DNA of 64,000 bases from a virus (Duplodnaviria; Caudoviricetes), in the IMG/VR virus record IMGVR_UViG_3300009095_000014, positions 1 to 64,000 of that record, one strand, 5' to 3'. The notes beneath the pieces are model-generated. The model did no database searches, was not told the origin of the DNA, and saw only the letters and a program-made list of their open reading frames with translations. Below, piece by piece: positions 53,273-62,398 of this stretch; position 1 is the stretch's first letter, and each line of letters opens with the position of its first letter. Position numbers and translations under genes: made by a program.

Positions 53273-53306
53273 GCATACGGAGGAGGGGTACCCCTCCTCC
53301 GTATGC
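53273..53306. repeat. Perfect 34-bp palindrome, CATA...TATG family, immediately upstream of terminase
   Basis: gcatacggaggaggggtacccctcctccgtatgc is self-complementary; TATG at 53302. Confidence 0.9.
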
Positions 53307-53320
53307 TAAGTGAGCGTTGT

Positions 53321-55558
53321 ATGATTTTGTTTGAAAAGGATTGGGCACGGTTTCCGCGTGCCATTGCTGACTTCAAAACCAGCAACCAGAGTTTCATCGA
53401 TCTGGTGATGTTGTATCGGCACATGGGCGTCAAGAACTGCCTGTTTCCTTTGGCGTTGATGCAACCGGAGCTACAAGGGGTGGACCCCCATGATCCAAAC
53501 TTGGATGAGGTGACCCAAACCCGCATCAAGATTGAATGCAAATTCAACCCGTGGTACTACCTGCGTGAAGTGGTACGCGTACCGCCGGTCTCGGGTGACA
53601 CACCGGTGCAGCTGCGGGCTAACCGCGCCAACATCTCCCTGTGGTGGTGCTTCCTCAACCACATCGACTATTTCCTCGTCCAGATCCGTCAGACGGGTAA
53701 GTCGCTGAACACTGACGTACTGCACAACTGGTACCAAATTTTCGGAACGGAAAACACCCGTGCCAACCTCTTCACCAAAGACGCTGACCTTATTAAAGAA
53801 AACATCGCGCGTCTGAAGAAGATCCGTAAGCTGCTGCCGCCCTATCTGGTTAACATCGTCCGTTCGGACACCGACAACCAGAAAGAGTTCACCAACTACG
53901 GTCAAGGCAACCGTTTGGTGGCTGTACAGGCTCAAGCCAACGAAGACGCGGCACTGAACATCGGTCGTGGATTGACCGCTGCCATGAACCATATCGACGA
54001 AGTGGCATTCCTGCGCTTTGTTCAGATCTCCGTGCCGGCGATGCTGGCAGGTTCGGGTGCAGCGCGTGAAGAAGCGGCTCGTAACGGCTTGCCCTACGGT
54101 AACATCTTCACGTCAACGGCCGGTAAGCTTGACAGTGAAGAAGGTTCCTTTGCCTACAAGCTGCTCAGTGATTCGATGGTCTGGGACGAATGCGTACTGG
54201 ACTGCGAAGATCAGAAGGCCCTGTACAAGGTGGTCAGTGCACGTTGCAAGACAGACTCCTTGATGGTCAACGGGACCTTCAGCCACCGTCAGCTGGGCTT
54301 TACGGATGAATGGCTCCGCAAGCGCATCGCCGATTCTAAGCAGTCCGGTGACGATGCCCGTCGCGACTTCTTGAACGAATGGACGGCCGGTAGTCTTTCT
54401 AACCCGCTGCCCACCTCGGTGCTGGAAACCATTCGCAAGCATGTAATCGACGCACCGTACAGTCAGGTGTTCAGTAGTCTTGGCTACATCATCCGCTGGT
54501 ATGTGCCCAAGGAAGAAGTCGAGAACAAGTTGAGTGGTCGACAGCTGGTCATGGGGGTCGATACCTCCAACGCCACGGGTCGAGACAGTATCACTGGGGT
54601 GATCACTGACGTCAGTACACTGGAAACCGTCGGGGTTTGGTCGATCAATGAAACCAACCTGCAACTGTTCTCGGGTTGGCTGGCGCGTTTGATCGCTAAT
54701 TTCAAGGGGCTGACAGTTGTACCGGAAAACAAGTCAACTTGGATTGCCATCTTGGACTACTTGCTGATTCACTTGCCCACCGTGGGCATTGATCCGGGAC
54801 GGCGGATCTACAGTCAGTTCATCGACCACATCAACGACGGTGACCGAGAAAAGCTGGAGTACAAAGAGTACCTGCGCAATCCCATGTCACCTAACCACTA
54901 CAACCGCTGGCGCCGGTACTTCGGGTTCCCCACCAACGGACCGCTACGTGAACTGCTCTATGGCAGCGTGATTCAAGAAGCGGGTAAGTTGGCAGGTGCG
55001 ATGGTACGAGACAAGGACTTGGCCGCTGAGATCTCGGGACTGGTGGTGAAGAACGGTCGGATTGACCACCGCAATGGTTTCCATGACGACCATGTCATCT
55101 CGTGGCTGTTGACGCACTGGTTCCTGACCTACGCCAAGAACTTGGAACACTACGGGATCGACAAGACCTTGGTCAAACGCAAGCTGCGCGAAATGGCGGT
55201 GGAGACCACCGACTGGCGAGCGGCACGGGAAGCAGAACTGCAAAAACAACTCCGGAATGAGTTGGAAGAAGTCTTGGATAAGATCAAGGTCGCACGAGAC
55301 GAATACCAGATCATGCGACTGGAACACCGACTGAACTCCATCTACGCCCGCTTGGATGTGGGTGGCTTGGGTATGGACGCCGGCAGCATCGACGCCCTGA
55401 TTGAAGAAGCCCGTGATCGCCGTGCGATCGGTAACCGGCAGAAACAACAAGGCGCGCGACAAACCGCTGAACCGGAACGCTATGCGTCGATCAACGGAAC
55501 CGGACGCTTTGGGGGACGGGGCGGATACCAACCGTCCTCTTCGGTGGTGATGTGCTGA
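53321..55558 (+). CDS. terL: Terminase large subunit (phiKZ gp25-like)
   Basis: CKFNPWYYLRE, Walker A RQTGKS, Walker B HIDEVAF, nuclease GVDTS and HDDHVISWLL; start re-called at ATG 53321 (MILFEKDW). Confidence 0.92.
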   Translation: MILFEKDWARFPRAIADFKTSNQSFIDLVMLYRHMGVKNCLFPLALMQPELQGVDPHDPNLDEVTQTRIKIECKFNPWYYLREVVRVPPVSGDTPVQLRANRANISLWWCFLNHIDYFLVQIRQTGKSLNTDVLHNWYQIFGTENTRANLFTKDADLIKENIARLKKIRKLLPPYLVNIVRSDTDNQKEFTNYGQGNRLVAVQAQANEDAALNIGRGLTAAMNHIDEVAFLRFVQISVPAMLAGSGAAREEAARNGLPYGNIFTSTAGKLDSEEGSFAYKLLSDSMVWDECVLDCEDQKALYKVVSARCKTDSLMVNGTFSHRQLGFTDEWLRKRIADSKQSGDDARRDFLNEWTAGSLSNPLPTSVLETIRKHVIDAPYSQVFSSLGYIIRWYVPKEEVENKLSGRQLVMGVDTSNATGRDSITGVITDVSTLETVGVWSINETNLQLFSGWLARLIANFKGLTVVPENKSTWIAILDYLLIHLPTVGIDPGRRIYSQFIDHINDGDREKLEYKEYLRNPMSPNHYNRWRRYFGFPTNGPLRELLYGSVIQEAGKLAGAMVRDKDLAAEISGLVVKNGRIDHRNGFHDDHVISWLLTHWFLTYAKNLEHYGIDKTLVKRKLREMAVETTDWRAAREAELQKQLRNELEEVLDKIKVARDEYQIMRLEHRLNSIYARLDVGGLGMDAGSIDALIEEARDRRAIGNRQKQQGARQTAEPERYASINGTGRFGGRGGYQPSSSVVMC

Positions 55559-55600
55559 CGGCATACAGGGGAGGGCACGAAGCCCTCCCCTGTATGCCGT
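55558..55600. terminator. CATA...TATG family hairpin, 19-bp perfect stem
   Basis: acggcatacaggggagggc ACGAA gccctcccctgtatgccgt. Confidence 0.85.
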
Positions 55601-55620
55601 CTAGGATTAGATCCCAATTC

Positions 55621-55647
55621 TTTTCGATCATACATTGTTCGAGTGAC
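55621..55647 (+). promoter_or_regulatory. Putative early promoter
   Basis: ttttcgatca TACATTGT tcga GTGAC. Confidence 0.68.
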
Positions 55648-55695
55648 AGGGTACACTCAAGTACCTAATAACCCTTTTAGACTAAGGAGTCTAAT

Positions 55696-55860
55696 ATGTT
55701 CCGTGAGATCAATGAAGTGCACGAAATCCGCGAAAGAATCGAACGCCGTAAGCGAAAAGAGTTGGAGAACACCAACCTCTTTCGACTTGCTCAACGTGCT
55801 GTTGAGCAGAAACAGCTCCAAGACCTCCAAAACCTTGACGCACCGATGCGCGTCAAGTAA
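55696..55860 (+). CDS. Microprotein, 54 aa, charged helical (not in ORF track)
   Basis: AAGGAG RBS; MFREINEVHEIRERIERRKRKELENTNLFRLAQRAVEQKQLQDLQNLDAPMRVK. Confidence 0.7.
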   Translation: MFREINEVHEIRERIERRKRKELENTNLFRLAQRAVEQKQLQDLQNLDAPMRVK

Positions 55861-55910
55861 GTAACACCCACCCCCGCCTATAGGGGATTAACGAGGGTGA
55901 CAATCCGGTC

Positions 55911-55944
55911 GCCCCGCACGTCCTAGGAGGACACAGCATGAACA
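55911..55944 (+). promoter_or_regulatory. Conserved translation-initiation leader shared with 61721-61738
   Basis: Identical 18-mer CACGTCCTAGGAGGACAC at 55917-55934 and 61721-61738, both followed by 3 nt + ATGAACA. Confidence 0.8.
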
Positions 55945-56300
55945 AGATCGCCAACCTGACCCAGCACAATGCTACTGAAGAGCAAGTGGCAGCGGGCGTA
56001 TTCGACCTCGTCGGCGAGGATCGAAAGATGTTGGTGAAGCTTCTCACCTTCGCCACCCTCCCCACCAAGGAGGAAATCGAAGAGCGCGCCAAAGCCATCG
56101 CCATGTTGGTGATGGGATGCCGCGCCGCCATGATCGGCGGCGCCCCGTACCTCATGCCCGCTCTCGAGCGTGCACTGAAGGAAGAGGGGGTTATGCCCCT
56201 CTACGCGTTCTCGGAACGCGTGTCGGTCGAGGAACTGTTGGCAGATGGCAGTATACGGAAAATCAACGTGTTCAAACATGTGGGATGGGTCGAGGCGTAA
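55938..56300 (+). CDS. Csx20/Csx15-like small Rossmann-fold protein, candidate cyclic-oligoadenylate ring nuclease or binder
   Basis: NLTQHNATEEQ, AMIGG, and PLYAFSERVSVEE...DGSIRKINVFKHVGW match by eye the Csx20 pattern (FSHxLTxEQ; LIQG; PVYATTxRxSxE...GxxxKxSxFKHVxF). Confidence 0.62.
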   Translation: MNKIANLTQHNATEEQVAAGVFDLVGEDRKMLVKLLTFATLPTKEEIEERAKAIAMLVMGCRAAMIGGAPYLMPALERALKEEGVMPLYAFSERVSVEELLADGSIRKINVFKHVGWVEA

Positions 56301-56413
56301 GTCTCGACCTAGGGCAAAGGAATGTCCAGCTCCCTCGTAAGAGGGAGTATCCCATTGAAGATCTAGACTGGTCTTCAATGGGATACACTTAACCTGAGCA
56401 CTAGGGGTTCAAT

Positions 56414-56728
56414 ATGGAATTCGTCAAAGTAAACTCTCAAGATCTGCAAATCGTTTTTTCGGCAGTGGTCGAACTGATCACCGCCATGGATGTTGCGTTT
56501 GATGTAGTAAAACAGGATTACAAGGTGGCATCCTTGCAATCTGAGCCGATAAAGAACTACTTCGAGGCAATTGCCTCGATCAGTTCTGCAAGTAAATTAT
56601 CGGCAGAACAAACTGCCGATACCATCATGCGCATCAAGGATGCGCAGATTAAGAAGATCACCAGCGAAGGGGTCTACTACCCCCTTCTGCATCGGGAGAT
56701 CAAGGCTTGGCTTGCCAAGCGCTCCTGA
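56414..56728 (+). CDS. Hypothetical protein
   Basis: 104 aa, AGGGG RBS, followed by terminator. Confidence 0.7.
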   Translation: MEFVKVNSQDLQIVFSAVVELITAMDVAFDVVKQDYKVASLQSEPIKNYFEAIASISSASKLSAEQTADTIMRIKDAQIKKITSEGVYYPLLHREIKAWLAKRS

Positions 56729-56732
56729 CAGC

Positions 56733-56775
56733 ATAGAGAGGAGCCTTCGGGCTCCTCTCTATCTTTTTTATTTTC
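56733..56775 (+). terminator. Intrinsic terminator, TTCG loop, gcata foot
   Basis: atagagaggagcc TTCG ggctcctctctat + T tract. Confidence 0.85.
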
Positions 56776-58699: not shown

Positions 58700-59614
58700 T
58701 CACTTCACCAAGGCGGTGGTCACACGATACAGGGCGTCTTCCACGTAACGGTCCATCAGGGTTTGACGGAGAGGGACGTTACGCTCGAAGAGTACCTTGA
58801 GGACTTCGGCGTAACGCTTGACGTCGTAGTCGAACGTCTTGGCCAGTTCACCGGTCAGACCCAGGGATTCTGCCTTCGGGATACTACGATCGAACGCATC
58901 GGCGATGATCTCGCGGACCTGGAGTTCTTCCGGGGGCAGTTGCACTTGGTCAGTAAAGGTGAAGGTGTCCAGTTCTTCCAGTTGGACCTGTTCCTCGACC
59001 TTGACCGACGGGGCGAACGATTGGTTCATTTCGGCGCGGTCATCACTGACATCCAGCGTCAACATACCGGTCGGACCACGCAGCACCAGAATGCCCGTGT
59101 GCGGGTCGTAGGTGGCACCCAGACGGATACCGGTGGGAGCGGGAGCGGGAGTGGGGTTCAGGTCCCACGACCGGCAATTGTGGTTGAGCTTCTCGTAGCT
59201 CTCGAAGAGCTTGTCGAAGTCGGGTTCAGGAATGGAGGCATCCACCCCGGCCAGGAACTTCACCGGGTCGGCGAGGTACTCCATTGCGGCCATGAACTTG
59301 GTATCGGGGTTGGCGGATGCCCGCAGGGACAGCTGCTCGTACTGATGTCGGCGATCGTACTTGCTGTAGGCCAGTAGGTCACCGACTTTGCGGTACAGGT
59401 CCTTGATGGCTTCTTCTTCACCGATCTTCGAGTTGTACTTGGCGGGGTTGACCGCACCCGATTGACCCACGGTGACGTAGCCGTTGACCAGATGGCCCAC
59501 GGCCAAGGTAGTCGTGGTCAGTTCAATGAACTGGATGTCGATGGACTTGATGGTATCCTTGATCTGGTCAAGGGTGATGTCATGTAGGTTGAAATGGGGG
59601 AATTGTGCTTTCAT
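58700..59614 (-). CDS. Phage Gp49/Sf6-gp66 (PF13876-like, Acb4-like) domain fused to an unknown ~200-aa C-terminal region
   Basis: Start ATG 59614 (AGGA RBS). ITLDQIKDTI...TTLAVGHLVNGYVTVGQSGAVNPAKYNSKIGEEEAIKDLYRKVGDLLAY fits the family pattern T.CVL.L.NGF.V.G.S.CV.P.NFD..IG...A.....K...L.GY; PTPAPAP linker. Confidence 0.7.
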   Translation of the reverse strand: MKAQFPHFNLHDITLDQIKDTIKSIDIQFIELTTTTLAVGHLVNGYVTVGQSGAVNPAKYNSKIGEEEAIKDLYRKVGDLLAYSKYDRRHQYEQLSLRASANPDTKFMAAMEYLADPVKFLAGVDASIPEPDFDKLFESYEKLNHNCRSWDLNPTPAPAPTGIRLGATYDPHTGILVLRGPTGMLTLDVSDDRAEMNQSFAPSVKVEEQVQLEELDTFTFTDQVQLPPEELQVREIIADAFDRSIPKAESLGLTGELAKTFDYDVKRYAEVLKVLFERNVPLRQTLMDRYVEDALYRVTTALVK

Positions 59615-59863
59615 GGTAATGCTTCCTGTGTAGGGCTGATGTGATAATCTCATCTGATCCTGACATGGAATTTTCTTTTACGGGAAGGTCTGTTATTTTA
59701 TGTCTTCACCACTTCGGTTTTTGGGAAGGGGGGAGACATTTTGATTGCGAGGAACGAGTAATCAAAATGGCGGGGGATGGGTAAGATAATAGCTCTATCT
59801 TCGGCGGAATCTGGAATGGAACGGTAGTGGAATGTAAGATGACAGAGAAGATAGATTCCTACT

Positions 59864-61678: not shown

Positions 61679-61741
61679 AAGGAGTAGTCCTCGACAATAA
61701 CCCGTGGCACTGTCGCCACTCACGTCCTAGGAGGACACGCT

Positions 61742-62398
61742 ATGAACAGTTACACTCAACAGATCGAAGCCGCCGCTGCGTACATCGCCCGCCGGGGCTC
61801 GTTGGATACGCTGGAAATGCGTATCATGCGGGAGCTGGATAATCGGTCCAGAAATGTCTTAACCAGCTTCATGGGTGAAGACGCCAACGAAGTCATCGCC
61901 GCCGCTAACCGCGGTGACTTCCTGGCAATCCTCTGGATGACGACCTACGGGTCAGATCCTGCCCGCGTGCAGGAGGGCATCTACCTGAAAACGGATTCGA
62001 TAGCCAAGTACGTGCAGCTGGTCATCGAATCCGACGGGTCCAGTCAAGGCGAGTTGTATAAACTCGCCAAGGCCCTGAACAAGGACGAGGAGGAGGACGG
62101 CTTCCTGCGCTTCTATGCGGAAGCACGCCGCCGTGTCGAGGATCTCCTCATCCGCGACACCAACGCGGAACTCAACCACATCCGCGAAGGGGAAGAAGGG
62201 GAGCGCGCCCTTCTGAACTGGCTGAGGGACCTGTCCGAGGACCAGATCTTTGATCTGAAGACCACTGCAGGGCTCACGGTAGGGCCGTTCCAGTACTACT
62301 GGAACTCCGTCGATTGCCCCGACCGGTGGTCCTTCTTCCTCGAAAGGGGAGGCAGGCTGTTGGAATGGGAGATCCATGGATCTTTCATCCGACAGTGA
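61742..62398 (+). CDS. Hypothetical early protein
   Basis: 218 aa, AGGAGG RBS in the shared leader. Confidence 0.75.
   Translation: MNSYTQQIEAAAAYIARRGSLDTLEMRIMRELDNRSRNVLTSFMGEDANEVIAAANRGDFLAILWMTTYGSDPARVQEGIYLKTDSIAKYVQLVIESDGSSQGELYKLAKALNKDEEEDGFLRFYAEARRRVEDLLIRDTNAELNHIREGEEGERALLNWLRDLSEDQIFDLKTTAGLTVGPFQYYWNSVDCPDRWSFFLERGGRLLEWEIHGSFIRQ

What the first reader, a model, noticed from the sequence alone, without database searches (positions are those of the whole stretch)
55938..56300. Phage-encoded Csx20-like protein: candidate new ring-nuclease anti-CRISPR (type III) or anti-CBASS
Seen: a 120-aa early gene with N-terminal NLTQHNATEEQ, central AMIGG and C-terminal PLYAFSERVSVEE..DGSIRKINVFKHVGW, closely following the Csx20/Csx15 pattern as I recall it. 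Established: Csx20-type proteins occur in type III CRISPR loci and have been reported as cyclic-oligoadenylate ring nucleases; the known viral ring nuclease AcrIII-1 (DUF1874) is a different family; type III systems can stop nucleus-forming phages. Inference: the phage uses a host-type off-switch to destroy cA4 or a related messenger. I am not aware of this being described in a jumbo phage but cannot check.
Basis: partly seen in the sequence, partly recalled or inferred. Interest (0 to 1): 0.85.

Follow-up and report, generated by a model that had tools for sequence, protein, structure and literature searches.

The report
Csx20-type ring nuclease in jumbo phage
A soil giant phage that builds a protein "nucleus" carries a small, well-conserved gene related to Csx20, an enzyme that destroys the cyclic-oligoadenylate alarm signal of type III CRISPR immunity. 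It probably uses the gene to blunt that defence, an idea already published for phage csx20 genes and still untested.

Summary
Window 55938-56300 (+) is a real 120-aa gene with an AGGAGG ribosome site and exactly the motifs described.

- **Homology:** it is a true but divergent homolog of Csx20. NCBIfam CAS_Csx20 gives E 1.6e-7, below the curated cut-off. A profile-profile comparison with bona fide Csx20 gives 96.7% probability and E 3.9e-10. Both clades share invariant His10, Gln16, a Gly-Ala loop, Arg94 and His114.
- **Family:** it belongs to a very large, mostly virus-borne clade (Pfam PF27247 'MJ1673'; 2643 clusters at 50% identity).
- **CRISPR link:** in Hyphomicrobiaceae, clade members about 56% identical sit inside type III-D CRISPR loci, next to a Csm6-type effector and a 30-unit array.
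- **Host phage:** the contig also encodes chimallin and PhuZ homologs, so the phage is nucleus-forming by gene content.

Best reading (about 0.6): a cytoplasmic, dimeric, metal-independent cA4 ring nuclease acting as an anti-type III CRISPR. Activity, substrate and expression timing are untested, and nothing found here supports an anti-CBASS role.

It is not new in kind. Csx20 was reported in four or five phage genomes, and csx20-aca14 operons were proposed as counter-defence. This scan has already noted phage Csx20-like genes in at least 32 other genomes, including nucleus-forming phages.

The parts
55938..56300 (+). 120-aa Csx20-family gene of the NLTQH/MIGGAP clade (Pfam PF27247 'MJ1673'); candidate cyclic-oligoadenylate ring nuclease
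   Evidence: ORF and translation. NF040559 E 1.6e-7. hhalign against true Csx20 96.7%, E 3.9e-10. 1453 and 2643 homologs. AF2 model pLDDT 93.1.
55925..55930 (+). Shine-Dalgarno AGGAGG, 7 nt upstream of the ATG. It lies inside an 18-nt stretch (CACGTCCTAGGAGGACAC) that is identical to the leader of the unrelated gene at 61742.
   Evidence: Sequence; alignment of the two leaders. The predicted hairpin is not better than shuffles, z -1.1.
55631..55645 (+). Candidate phage promoter motif TACATTGT-N4-GTG, about 65 nt upstream of the first gene of the three-gene unit
   Evidence: Four exact + strand copies in the window, 5 matches with up to 1 mismatch against 0.8 expected, and 0 of 100 shuffles reach 5. 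Function and timing class are not shown.
55561..55597 (+). Perfect 16-bp hairpin directly after the terminase stop codon (55558); likely end of the terminase transcript
   Evidence: Read from the sequence shown. The consensus terminator scan did not flag it because it has no T-run.
55696..55860 (+). 54-aa orphan ORF upstream, probably co-transcribed
   Evidence: no family. It is not homologous to the 54-aa ORF that precedes the homolog in L003.
56414..56728 (+). 104-aa orphan ORF downstream, probably co-transcribed
   Evidence: no family; no usable Atlas hit.
56733..56772 (+). Intrinsic terminator (13-bp stem, 7 G-C pairs, T-run) closing the three-gene unit

Best explanation
The gene encodes a stand-alone Csx20-family protein with a minimal CARF-like Rossmannoid fold. 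The phage makes it in the host cytoplasm. The proposed mechanism is that two copies form a dimer with one shared pocket that binds cyclic tetra-adenylate (cA4). Cas10 of a type III CRISPR system makes cA4 when it recognises phage mRNA exported from the phage nucleus. The protein would cut the ring without metal ions into linear products with 2',3'-cyclic phosphate ends. Candidate catalytic and binding residues are His10 in the loop after strand 1, the Gly67-Gly68-Ala69 loop, Ser92/Arg94 and His114 on the C-terminal hairpin. Removing cA4 would keep CARF effectors (Csm6/Csx1, Can2, Cam1 and similar) switched off. This matters to a nucleus-forming phage because its DNA is shielded from DNA-targeting systems but its mRNA is not.

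Shown here: homology to Csx20, shared invariant residues, a type III context for close clade members, phage and nucleus-forming context, and a conserved stand-alone gene.

Inferred: dimer, substrate, cleavage chemistry, cytoplasmic site of action and anti-CRISPR effect.
For: (1) Homology to Csx20: NF040559 E 1.6e-7 for this protein. Ten relatives score 22.6-56.6 bits, the best co-linear over positions 2-122 of 124. hhalign of the clade alignment A1 against 10 bona fide Csx20 (142-171 bits) gives 96.7% probability, E 3.9e-10, over 110 columns.

(2) Invariant residues of the two clades coincide: His10, Gln16, Gly-Ala loop, Pro87, Tyr89, Arg94, Phe112 and His114.

(3) Csx20 was shown biochemically to degrade cA4 in EDTA buffer, and also cA3 at ten-fold higher enzyme concentration (10.1101/2024.09.24.614671; published as PMC12409355).

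(4) Clade members 56% identical to this protein (L043) lie inside type III-D loci with Csx19, Csx7/Csx10-type RAMPs and a weak Cas10/Cmr2 match. A Csm6-family CARF effector (TIGR02584, 135.9 bits against a cut-off of 80.65) lies immediately downstream. A 30-unit CRISPR array lies about 3 kb further on. Other cellular neighbours include Cas_csx3 and Cas_APE2256.

(5) At least 19 clusters are tandem two-copy fusions. One copy often loses His10 while the other keeps NLTQH, and His114 stays in both. This fits a dimer with a shared site and a functional His10.

(6) Phage context: phiKZ-like terminase, chimallin and PhuZ homologs in the same contig. Type III CRISPR is known to act on nucleus-forming jumbo phages through exported mRNA (10.1101/2022.06.20.496707).

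(7) At least 199 viral contigs carry the clade, as a stand-alone gene with no fixed partner, mostly among early/replication genes. At least three contigs with phiKZ-like genes carry it at different positions.

(8) A phage copy next to an RHH gene (Pm86) matches the published csx20-aca14 anti-defence operon.
Against: - No biochemical or genetic test exists for any viral member.
- The protein scores well below the curated Csx20 equivalog cut-off (31.7 against 70 bits). One genome carries both clades, so they are paralogous and could differ in substrate or activity.
- I could not find out which clade the assayed Csx20 belongs to.
- 24 of 69 cellular loci are in CPR bacteria and 4 in archaea, mostly DPANN. 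Many sit next to housekeeping genes or a TrmB-type regulator rather than CRISPR genes, so the clade is not tied to type III loci in general.
- The host of this phage, and whether it has a type III system, are unknown (soil metagenome).
- The one well-studied type III defence against a jumbo phage uses cA3-activated NucC, and Csx20 cuts cA3 only weakly.
Confidence: 0.6

Rival explanations
1. It is a ring nuclease with a different or broader substrate: cA3, cA6 or CBASS-type signals such as cAAG or 3'3'-cGAMP. It would then counter NucC-type type III systems and/or CBASS rather than cA4 effectors.
For: The clade is paralogous to the assayed Csx20 type, and both occur in one genome. It has its own invariant residues: Asn6, Leu7, Thr8, Gln9, Asp103, Gly104 and Lys108. 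Csx20 already shows some cA3 activity at high concentration. The known type III defence against a jumbo phage signals through cA3 and NucC. A Gp49/Sf6-gp66 domain gene lies about 2.4 kb away in the same accessory region.
Against: All signalling-related neighbours found for cellular clade members are type III CRISPR components. The adjacent effector is Csm6-family. No CBASS component appears among the 25 most frequent neighbour families. The residues shared with Csx20 include the likely ligand-contacting loops.
Confidence: 0.13
2. It is a sponge rather than an enzyme. The dimer binds cyclic oligoadenylate tightly and sequesters it with little or no cleavage, as described for some Csx15 proteins.
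For: Csx15, another small CARF-like protein, is a good cA4 binder but a very slow nuclease. Sequence conservation alone cannot tell binding residues from catalytic ones. In tandem fusions one His10 is dispensable.
Against: The homologous Csx20 is an efficient multiple-turnover enzyme at 100-fold substrate excess. His10, Arg94 and His114 are invariant across both clades, which suits acid-base catalysis. The authors of the Csx15 study argue that sponging is a poor strategy against the large cOA amounts made by type III systems.
Confidence: 0.1
3. It has a function unrelated to defence signalling, such as binding or processing another nucleotide or small molecule, or a regulatory role. The type III-linked members would then be a minority recruitment.
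For: Most cellular copies are not next to CRISPR genes. 24 of 69 are in CPR bacteria, often beside housekeeping genes or a TrmB-type HTH regulator. Conservation is unusually high, 45-60% identity across bacterial, archaeal and viral copies. Fusions to unrelated regions exist, for example DUF4116.
Against: The only experimentally characterised relatives are ring nucleases. The only recurrent functionally informative neighbours are cOA-signalling proteins. The distribution is that of a mobile accessory gene in phages, with variable position and no fixed partner, which is typical of counter-defence genes. AcrIII-1 is likewise described as widespread in viruses.
Confidence: 0.12
4. It is not a functional gene: a chance ORF or a decaying remnant.
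For: None beyond the general caution that small phage ORFs are often miscalled. A truncated copy does exist in Pasteurella phage Pm86.
Against: It is full length and co-linear with more than a thousand homologs and retains all clade-invariant residues. It has a strong Shine-Dalgarno site and a confident fold, pLDDT 93.1.
Confidence: 0.01

Closest known systems
Csx20, CRISPR-associated cA4 ring nuclease (NCBIfam NF040559; Pfam PF27247 'MJ1673'; Hoikkala et al., PMC12409355)
   Same: Homologous over essentially the whole length (hhalign 96.7%, E 3.9e-10). Same size, about 120-135 aa, and stand-alone. Shared invariant His10, Gln16, Gly-Ala loop, Pro, Tyr, Arg94, Phe and His114. Some members of this clade occupy the same genomic niche, a type III locus beside a CARF effector.
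   Different: It scores 31.7 bits against a curated cut-off of 70. It forms a separate clade, with tree distance about 7.3 to true Csx20 against 1.4-2.3 within the clade, and both clades can co-occur in one genome. It has its own motifs (NLTQH, MIGGAPYLM, DG..K). It is predominantly virus- or MGE-borne and here lies in a phage, not a CRISPR locus. Its activity is untested.
Phage csx20 homologs in csx20-aca14 operons of Pasteurella multocida (bioRxiv 10.64898/2026.07.27.740549), and the four or five phage Csx20 genes counted by Hoikkala et al.
   Same: Same clade, judged from Pasteurella phage Pm86: 49% identity over residues 64-120, with the MVGGAPFF and FKHAGW motifs, followed by an RHH-like ORF. 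The same co-opted counter-defence role has been proposed for them.
   Different: No RHH/Aca-like regulator is recognisable next to the gene here; the flanking 54-aa and 104-aa ORFs are orphans. The host phage is an uncultured nucleus-forming jumbo phage rather than a temperate phage. No cultured phiKZ-like phage in the 50,697-record collection has a match.
AcrIII-1 / Crn2 (DUF1874), the established viral ring nuclease
   Same: Same proposed role and logic: a small dimeric viral enzyme that destroys cA4 to disarm type III CRISPR, widely spread among unrelated viruses and also recruited by some cellular loci.
   Different: An unrelated family. This protein has no Pfam match at all at E<=10, so none to DUF1874. 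Its fold is Rossmann-like, with a different secondary-structure order.
Crn1 (Sso2081/Sis0455), CARF-domain ring nucleases
   Different: No detectable sequence similarity. Crn1 is larger, about 180 aa. The match here is no better than to generic Rossmann-like domains.
Csx15 (CARF-like cA4 sponge / slow ring nuclease)
   Same: A small stand-alone protein of type III loci. It is a possible functional analogue if this protein binds rather than cleaves.
   Different: Csx15 was reported absent from phage genomes. The NCBIfam scan at E<=10 returned Csx20 as the only CRISPR-related family.

Membership tests
Csx20 equivalog (NCBIfam NF040559) | Score at or above the curated whole-protein cut-off (70 bits) | tested here: not met
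   31.7 bits, E 1.6e-7, covering only residues 63-117. Ten relatives score 22.6-56.6 bits. Bona fide Csx20 score 142-171 bits. I therefore do not file it as an equivalog.
Csx20 superfamily / Pfam PF27247 (MJ1673) | Significant match to the family profile | tested here: met
   By proxy and by profile comparison. My Pfam copy returned no family for this protein or its relatives. Precomputed Pfam lists PF27247 for the 96%-identical P0002 and for all but one of the 120 best homologs, and names it MJ1673 for P0005. hhalign of A1 against true Csx20 gives 96.7%, E 3.9e-10 over 110 columns.
Csx20 superfamily / Pfam PF27247 (MJ1673) | Conserved residue set on the predicted cOA-binding face (His after strand 1, Gly-rich loop, Arg, C-terminal F-x-H) | tested here: met
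   His10, Gln16, Gly68-Ala69, Pro87, Tyr89, Arg94, Phe112 and His114 are invariant in A1. They align with invariant His10, Gln16, Gly78-Ala79, Pro94, Tyr96, Arg101, Phe119 and His121 of A3. I could not check that they face one pocket, because no model coordinates were available to me.
Csx20 superfamily / Pfam PF27247 (MJ1673) | Encoded in a type III CRISPR-Cas locus beside cA4-activated effectors | tested here: not met
   This copy lies between the terminase and structural/accessory genes of a phage. The feature is met for close clade members (L043, L057, L021, L060). This is the expected difference for a viral copy.
Csx20 superfamily / Pfam PF27247 (MJ1673) | Homodimer forming a shared ligand site | tested here: inconclusive
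   Indirect only: at least 19 tandem two-copy fusions with asymmetric loss of His10.
Csx20 superfamily / Pfam PF27247 (MJ1673) | Metal-independent cleavage of cA4 to linear products | not testable with these tools
   Shown only for a CRISPR-associated Csx20 in vitro.
CARF / Rossmann-like sensor fold | Structural match to CARF domains standing above unrelated folds | tested here: inconclusive
AcrIII-1 / Crn2 (DUF1874) | DUF1874 domain | tested here: not met
   No Pfam family at E<=10. No PDB sequence match to AcrIII-1 or Crn2.
Nucleus-forming (chimallin-encoding, phiKZ-like) phage as carrier | Chimallin, PhuZ and phiKZ-type terminase in the same genome | tested here: met
   Chimallin homolog at contig 73365-75212 (E 9.8e-27, 26% identity to phiKZ gp54 over residues 3-611 of 626). 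PhuZ homolog at 63876-64796 (E 1.1e-27). Terminase 54.7% identical to that of Pseudomonas phage pPa_SNUABM_DT01. Nucleus formation itself is inferred.

The most novel reading that the evidence does not exclude
The NLTQH/MIGGAP clade is not simply 'Csx20 in a phage'. It would be a distinct, predominantly virus-borne ring-nuclease family, rivalling or exceeding AcrIII-1 in spread (2643 clusters at 50% identity), with its own substrate range. For example, efficient cA3 or broad cOA cleavage would let nucleus-forming phages neutralise NucC-type type III immunity, and perhaps CBASS. The CRISPR-linked members would then be secondary recruitments from viruses.
Probability: 0.2. Interest if true: 0.65.

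Novelty: new member of a known kind. Interest (0 to 1): 0.4.

Why it matters
Nucleus-forming jumbo phages shield their DNA from restriction and from DNA-targeting CRISPR. RNA-sensing type III CRISPR is one of the few systems known to stop them. A ring nuclease that erases the type III alarm signal would be a direct answer to that weakness, and none has been demonstrated in such phages.

The wider point is that this Csx20-like clade is very abundant in viral metagenomes yet barely represented in cultured phages: 3 hits in 50,697 records. It may therefore be a major, experimentally untouched family of anti-type III CRISPR enzymes. The concept is already in print and the scan has met it repeatedly, so this copy adds an example and some mechanistic hints (shared invariant residues, asymmetric tandem fusions, type III-D-linked close relatives), not a new principle.

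Tried and rejected
- **Family and sequence searches on the protein itself.** Local Pfam-A and PHROGs gave no family. A PDB sequence search gave only chance-level hits.
- **Homodimer prediction (complex prediction).** No verdict: score 0.29, mark 0.42. It is not used as evidence.
- **Sequencing runs.** One soil-metagenome DNA run holds the stretch and is probably its source. No RNA holder is listed, so nothing can be said on expression.
- **A conserved gene pair.** The 54-aa ORFs upstream of the gene here and in L003 are unrelated.
- **Upstream motif GACAATCCNGTC shared with L003.** 3 matches against 1.8 expected, so not significant.
- **SD-occluding leader hairpin.** Energy is not better than shuffles, z -1.1, although the 18-nt identity with the leader of gene 61742 is real.
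- **A fixed partner gene.** None exists; the commonest neighbour cluster is in 12 of 149 loci.
- **Fusion partners.** Ten long forms were scanned and only DUF4116 was recognised.
- **Large viral contigs in the same subclade.** L089, L093 and L135 show no chimallin or phiKZ-type terminase match.
- **Composition.** The gene's GC (about 0.58-0.60) is not anomalous, so there is no compositional sign of recent acquisition.
- **The 104-aa downstream ORF.** No usable Atlas hit.

Full report
**1. The observation**

Window 55938-56300 (+) is an open frame of 120 codons. AGGAGG lies at 55925-55930, 7 nt before the ATG. The longer antisense ORF (55923-56378, minus strand) can be ignored, because the plus-strand product has 1453 homologs with E<=1e-3, the closest 96% identical.

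**2. Where it sits**

The window is the first 64 kb of an 84.6-kb IMG/VR viral record estimated to be 30% complete, which implies a genome of roughly 280 kb. The stretch is held by one soil-metagenome run.

- The gene follows the large terminase (53303-55558). That terminase is 54.7% identical to the one in Pseudomonas phage pPa_SNUABM_DT01 and 40-44% identical to those of other listed phiKZ-like phages.
- The same contig encodes a homolog of the phiKZ nuclear-shell protein chimallin (contig 73365-75212, E 9.8e-27) and of the tubulin PhuZ (63876-64796, E 1.1e-27). The carrier is therefore a nucleus-forming phage by gene content.
- Locally, a perfect 16-bp hairpin follows the terminase stop (55561-55597, read).
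- A motif TACATTGT-N4-GTG sits at 55631. It has four exact plus-strand copies in the window, with 0.8 matches expected at the search setting.
- Three small plus-strand genes follow: a 54-aa orphan, the Csx20-like gene and a 104-aa orphan. A strong intrinsic terminator at 56733-56762 closes the unit.
- The timing of expression is not established.

**3. What the protein is**

My Pfam copy and PHROGs return nothing, but NCBIfam returns CAS_Csx20 (NF040559) at E 1.6e-7. That is below the curated 70-bit cut-off and covers the C-terminal half. Ten relatives hit the same model at 22.6-56.6 bits, the best co-linearly over positions 2-122 of 124. Precomputed Pfam annotation places nearly all listed homologs in PF27247, named MJ1673 after a gene of Methanocaldococcus jannaschii. 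The Csx20 model scores above its cut-off in M. jannaschii in the control set.

To compare directly, I collected bona fide Csx20 (142-171 bits) from 26 of 40 Thermoanaerobacteria genomes and aligned ten of them as A3.

- The profile-profile comparison with the clade alignment A1 gives 96.7% probability and E 3.9e-10 over 110 columns.
- The invariant residues of the two sets fall in the same columns: His10, Gln16, the Gly-Ala loop (Gly68-Ala69 against Gly78-Ala79), Pro87, Tyr89, Arg94, Phe112 and His114.
- One Thermoanaerobacter genome carries both a true Csx20 (157 bits) and a member of this clade (36 bits).
- On a tree, true Csx20 lies at patristic distance about 7.3 from the window protein, against 1.4-2.3 within the clade.

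The protein is thus a genuine member of the Csx20 superfamily, in a separate paralogous clade defined by NLTQH, MIGGAPYLM, DG and K108.

**4. Structure**

AlphaFold2 with the 41-sequence alignment gives a confident model (pLDDT 93.1). The order of elements is strand, short helix, strand, two helices, strand, helix and a long C-terminal hairpin.

Searches of solved structures are not decisive.

- Foldseek finds nothing at E<=0.001. Its weak list includes the ring nucleases Sso2081 (probability 0.94) and Sis0455, and cA4-bound Cam1.
- No Csx20 structure appears to be in the PDB.
- The fold is therefore Rossmann-like and compatible with a minimal CARF, but structure alone does not prove this.

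**5. Distribution and context of the clade**

The exhaustive profile search finds 2643 clusters at 50% identity, 947 of them below E 1e-30. A motif scan finds 199 viral contigs and 69 loci in species-representative genomes.

- Of the genome loci, 24 are in CPR bacteria and 4 in archaea, mostly DPANN; the rest are spread over many phyla.
- Identity to the window protein stays at 42-61% across all these loci. That is unusually high and fits a mobile gene with a universal small-molecule target.
- Clustering the neighbours of 149 loci shows no fixed partner. The commonest neighbour, a 260-aa TrmB-type HTH protein in CPR genomes, occurs in 12 loci.
- In viral contigs the neighbours are helicases, primases, Sak4, polymerases, methyltransferases, integrases and terminases.
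- In cellular loci the recurrent informative neighbours are type III CRISPR parts: RAMPs (4), Cas_NE0113/Csm6 (3), Cas_csx3 (2) and Cas_APE2256 (1).

The clearest case is four Hyphomicrobiaceae loci. In L043 the clade member is 56% identical to the window protein. It lies between a Csx19 / Csx7-like / Csx10-like / Cas10-like module and a Csm6-family CARF effector that scores 135.9 bits against a cut-off of 80.65. In L057 a 30-unit CRISPR array with a 36-nt repeat lies about 3 kb downstream. This clade therefore fills the Csx20 niche in real type III loci, even though the curated Csx20 model does not recognise those members (protein 10).

**6. Other phage copies**

- A 63%-identical copy (P0005) lies in another contig with phiKZ-type genes. 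Its position is different, between internal-protein genes and the tail tube and sheath genes. The 54-aa ORF in front of it is unrelated to the one here.
- A third contig with a phiKZ-type terminase (181 kb) also has a copy.
- In the tree, the window protein groups (support about 0.8) with viral copies including P0005. Three other large viral contigs in or next to that group gave no phiKZ-type terminase or chimallin match.
- Among 50,697 deposited phage records only three have a match: Rhodothermus phage RM378 (full length, 44.5%), Pasteurella phage Pm86 and Fusobacterium phage JD-Fnp4.
- The Pm86 copy is truncated to the C-terminal half and overlaps a 71-aa RHH-like ORF. This is the csx20-aca14 arrangement described for P. 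multocida.

**7. Mechanism**

Csx20 from a type III locus degrades cA4 to linear products in EDTA buffer. It does not cut cA6, and it cuts cA3 only at ten-fold higher enzyme concentration. Its AF3 model is a dimer with conserved residues around two modelled AMPs.

By homology, I infer that the phage protein is a dimeric, metal-independent ring nuclease for cA4. Three observations made here bear on this.

- The residues invariant in both clades (His10, Gln16, Gly-Ala loop, Arg94, His114) are the natural candidates for ligand binding and acid-base catalysis.
- They sit where Rossmann-like and CARF domains bind ligands: the loop after strand 1, the Gly-rich loop after the central strand, and one face of the C-terminal hairpin. 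That placement is inferred from the secondary structure.
- At least 19 clusters are tandem two-copy fusions. One copy often replaces His10 by Phe or Trp while the other keeps NLTQH, and both keep His114. This is what one expects if two domains build one shared site and His10 is functional rather than structural.

The protein would act in the cytoplasm, where Cas10 meets exported phage mRNA. That step is an inference.

**8. Rivals**

- A different substrate (cA3, CBASS signals) cannot be excluded, because the clade is paralogous to the assayed type and the best-studied anti-jumbo type III system signals through cA3 and NucC. However, no CBASS component appears among the 25 most frequent neighbour families.
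- A sponge role, as for some Csx15 proteins, is possible.
- A non-defence role is suggested by the many CPR copies without CRISPR neighbours. It has no positive evidence.
- A non-gene is excluded.

**9. Novelty**

- Csx20 as a ring nuclease is established.
- Csx20 genes were counted in four (published) or five (preprint) of 28,114 phage genomes.
- A 2026 preprint proposes phage csx20 as a co-opted counter-defence gene regulated by Aca14.
- I found no paper reporting a ring nuclease in a nucleus-forming phage.
- This scan already holds 42 notes in at least 32 genomes on phage Csx20-like genes, two of them in nucleus-forming phages.

I therefore rate this a new member of a known kind with moderate interest. 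Its value lies in the link to jumbo-phage biology and in the size of an untested viral family.

Noticed in passing
window 55880-55950 and 61684-61754: The leaders of two unrelated genes (ATG at 55938 and 61742) share GTCGCC-N3-CACGTCCTAGGAGGACAC-N3-ATGAACA, with 18 nt identical across the Shine-Dalgarno site. The predicted hairpin is not more stable than shuffles, z -1.1. The shared sequence is unexplained.
   Followed up: partly
window 41841, 43772, 55631, 61662 (+): The motif TACATTGT-N4-GTG has four exact plus-strand copies, with 0.8 matches expected at one mismatch and 0 of 100 shuffles reaching the observed 5. It is a candidate phage promoter in front of small accessory genes. Its timing class is unknown.
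   Followed up: partly
window 58700-59653 (-): A 317-aa ORF has its residues 26-96 matching Pfam PF13876 (N4 Gp49 / Sf6 gp66 family; E 9.8e-10, above the gathering score) and PHROG 322. The remaining roughly 220 aa have no match. I did not test whether it relates to cyclic-nucleotide sponges.
   Followed up: partly
contig beyond the window: G000:C1:63876-64796 and 73365-75212: PhuZ-like tubulin and a chimallin (nuclear shell) homolog, each about 26% identical to the phiKZ proteins.
   Followed up: yes
P0122-P0140 (metagenomic proteins): Tandem two-copy, and one possible three-copy, fusions of the Csx20-like domain. One copy often has His10 replaced by Phe or Trp while the other keeps NLTQH. 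Some carry long unannotated extensions, and one carries DUF4116 repeats.
   Followed up: partly
L174 (G019:C81) and G020:C3:862789-863157: In two Thermoanaerobacteria genomes a bona fide Csx20 domain (150-156 bits) is the C-terminal part of an open frame of about 580 aa. This may be an effector-ring nuclease fusion of the self-limiting kind. The N-terminal part was not annotated.
   Followed up: no
L022, L029, L030, L044-L046, L055, L056, L061, L063, L065, L072: In 12 loci, mostly CPR (Patescibacteria) genomes, the clade gene has a roughly 260-aa TrmB-type winged-HTH protein nearby, within one or two genes in nine of them and often on the opposite strand. It could be an Aca-like regulator. Its C-terminal 180 aa are unannotated.
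   Followed up: no
L183 (Pasteurella phage Pm86, record 55546-55716): An unannotated, truncated Csx20-like ORF (66 aa, C-terminal half only) overlaps a 71-aa RHH-like ORF at the right end of the deposited genome. This resembles the published csx20-aca14 operon, but with the nuclease gene apparently decayed or cut by the record's ends.
   Followed up: partly
L003 7990 and window 55899: The two jumbo-phage copies share GACAATCC(G/T)GTC about 30-40 nt upstream of the start codon. The motif is not enriched in the window: 3 matches against 1.8 expected.
   Followed up: yes
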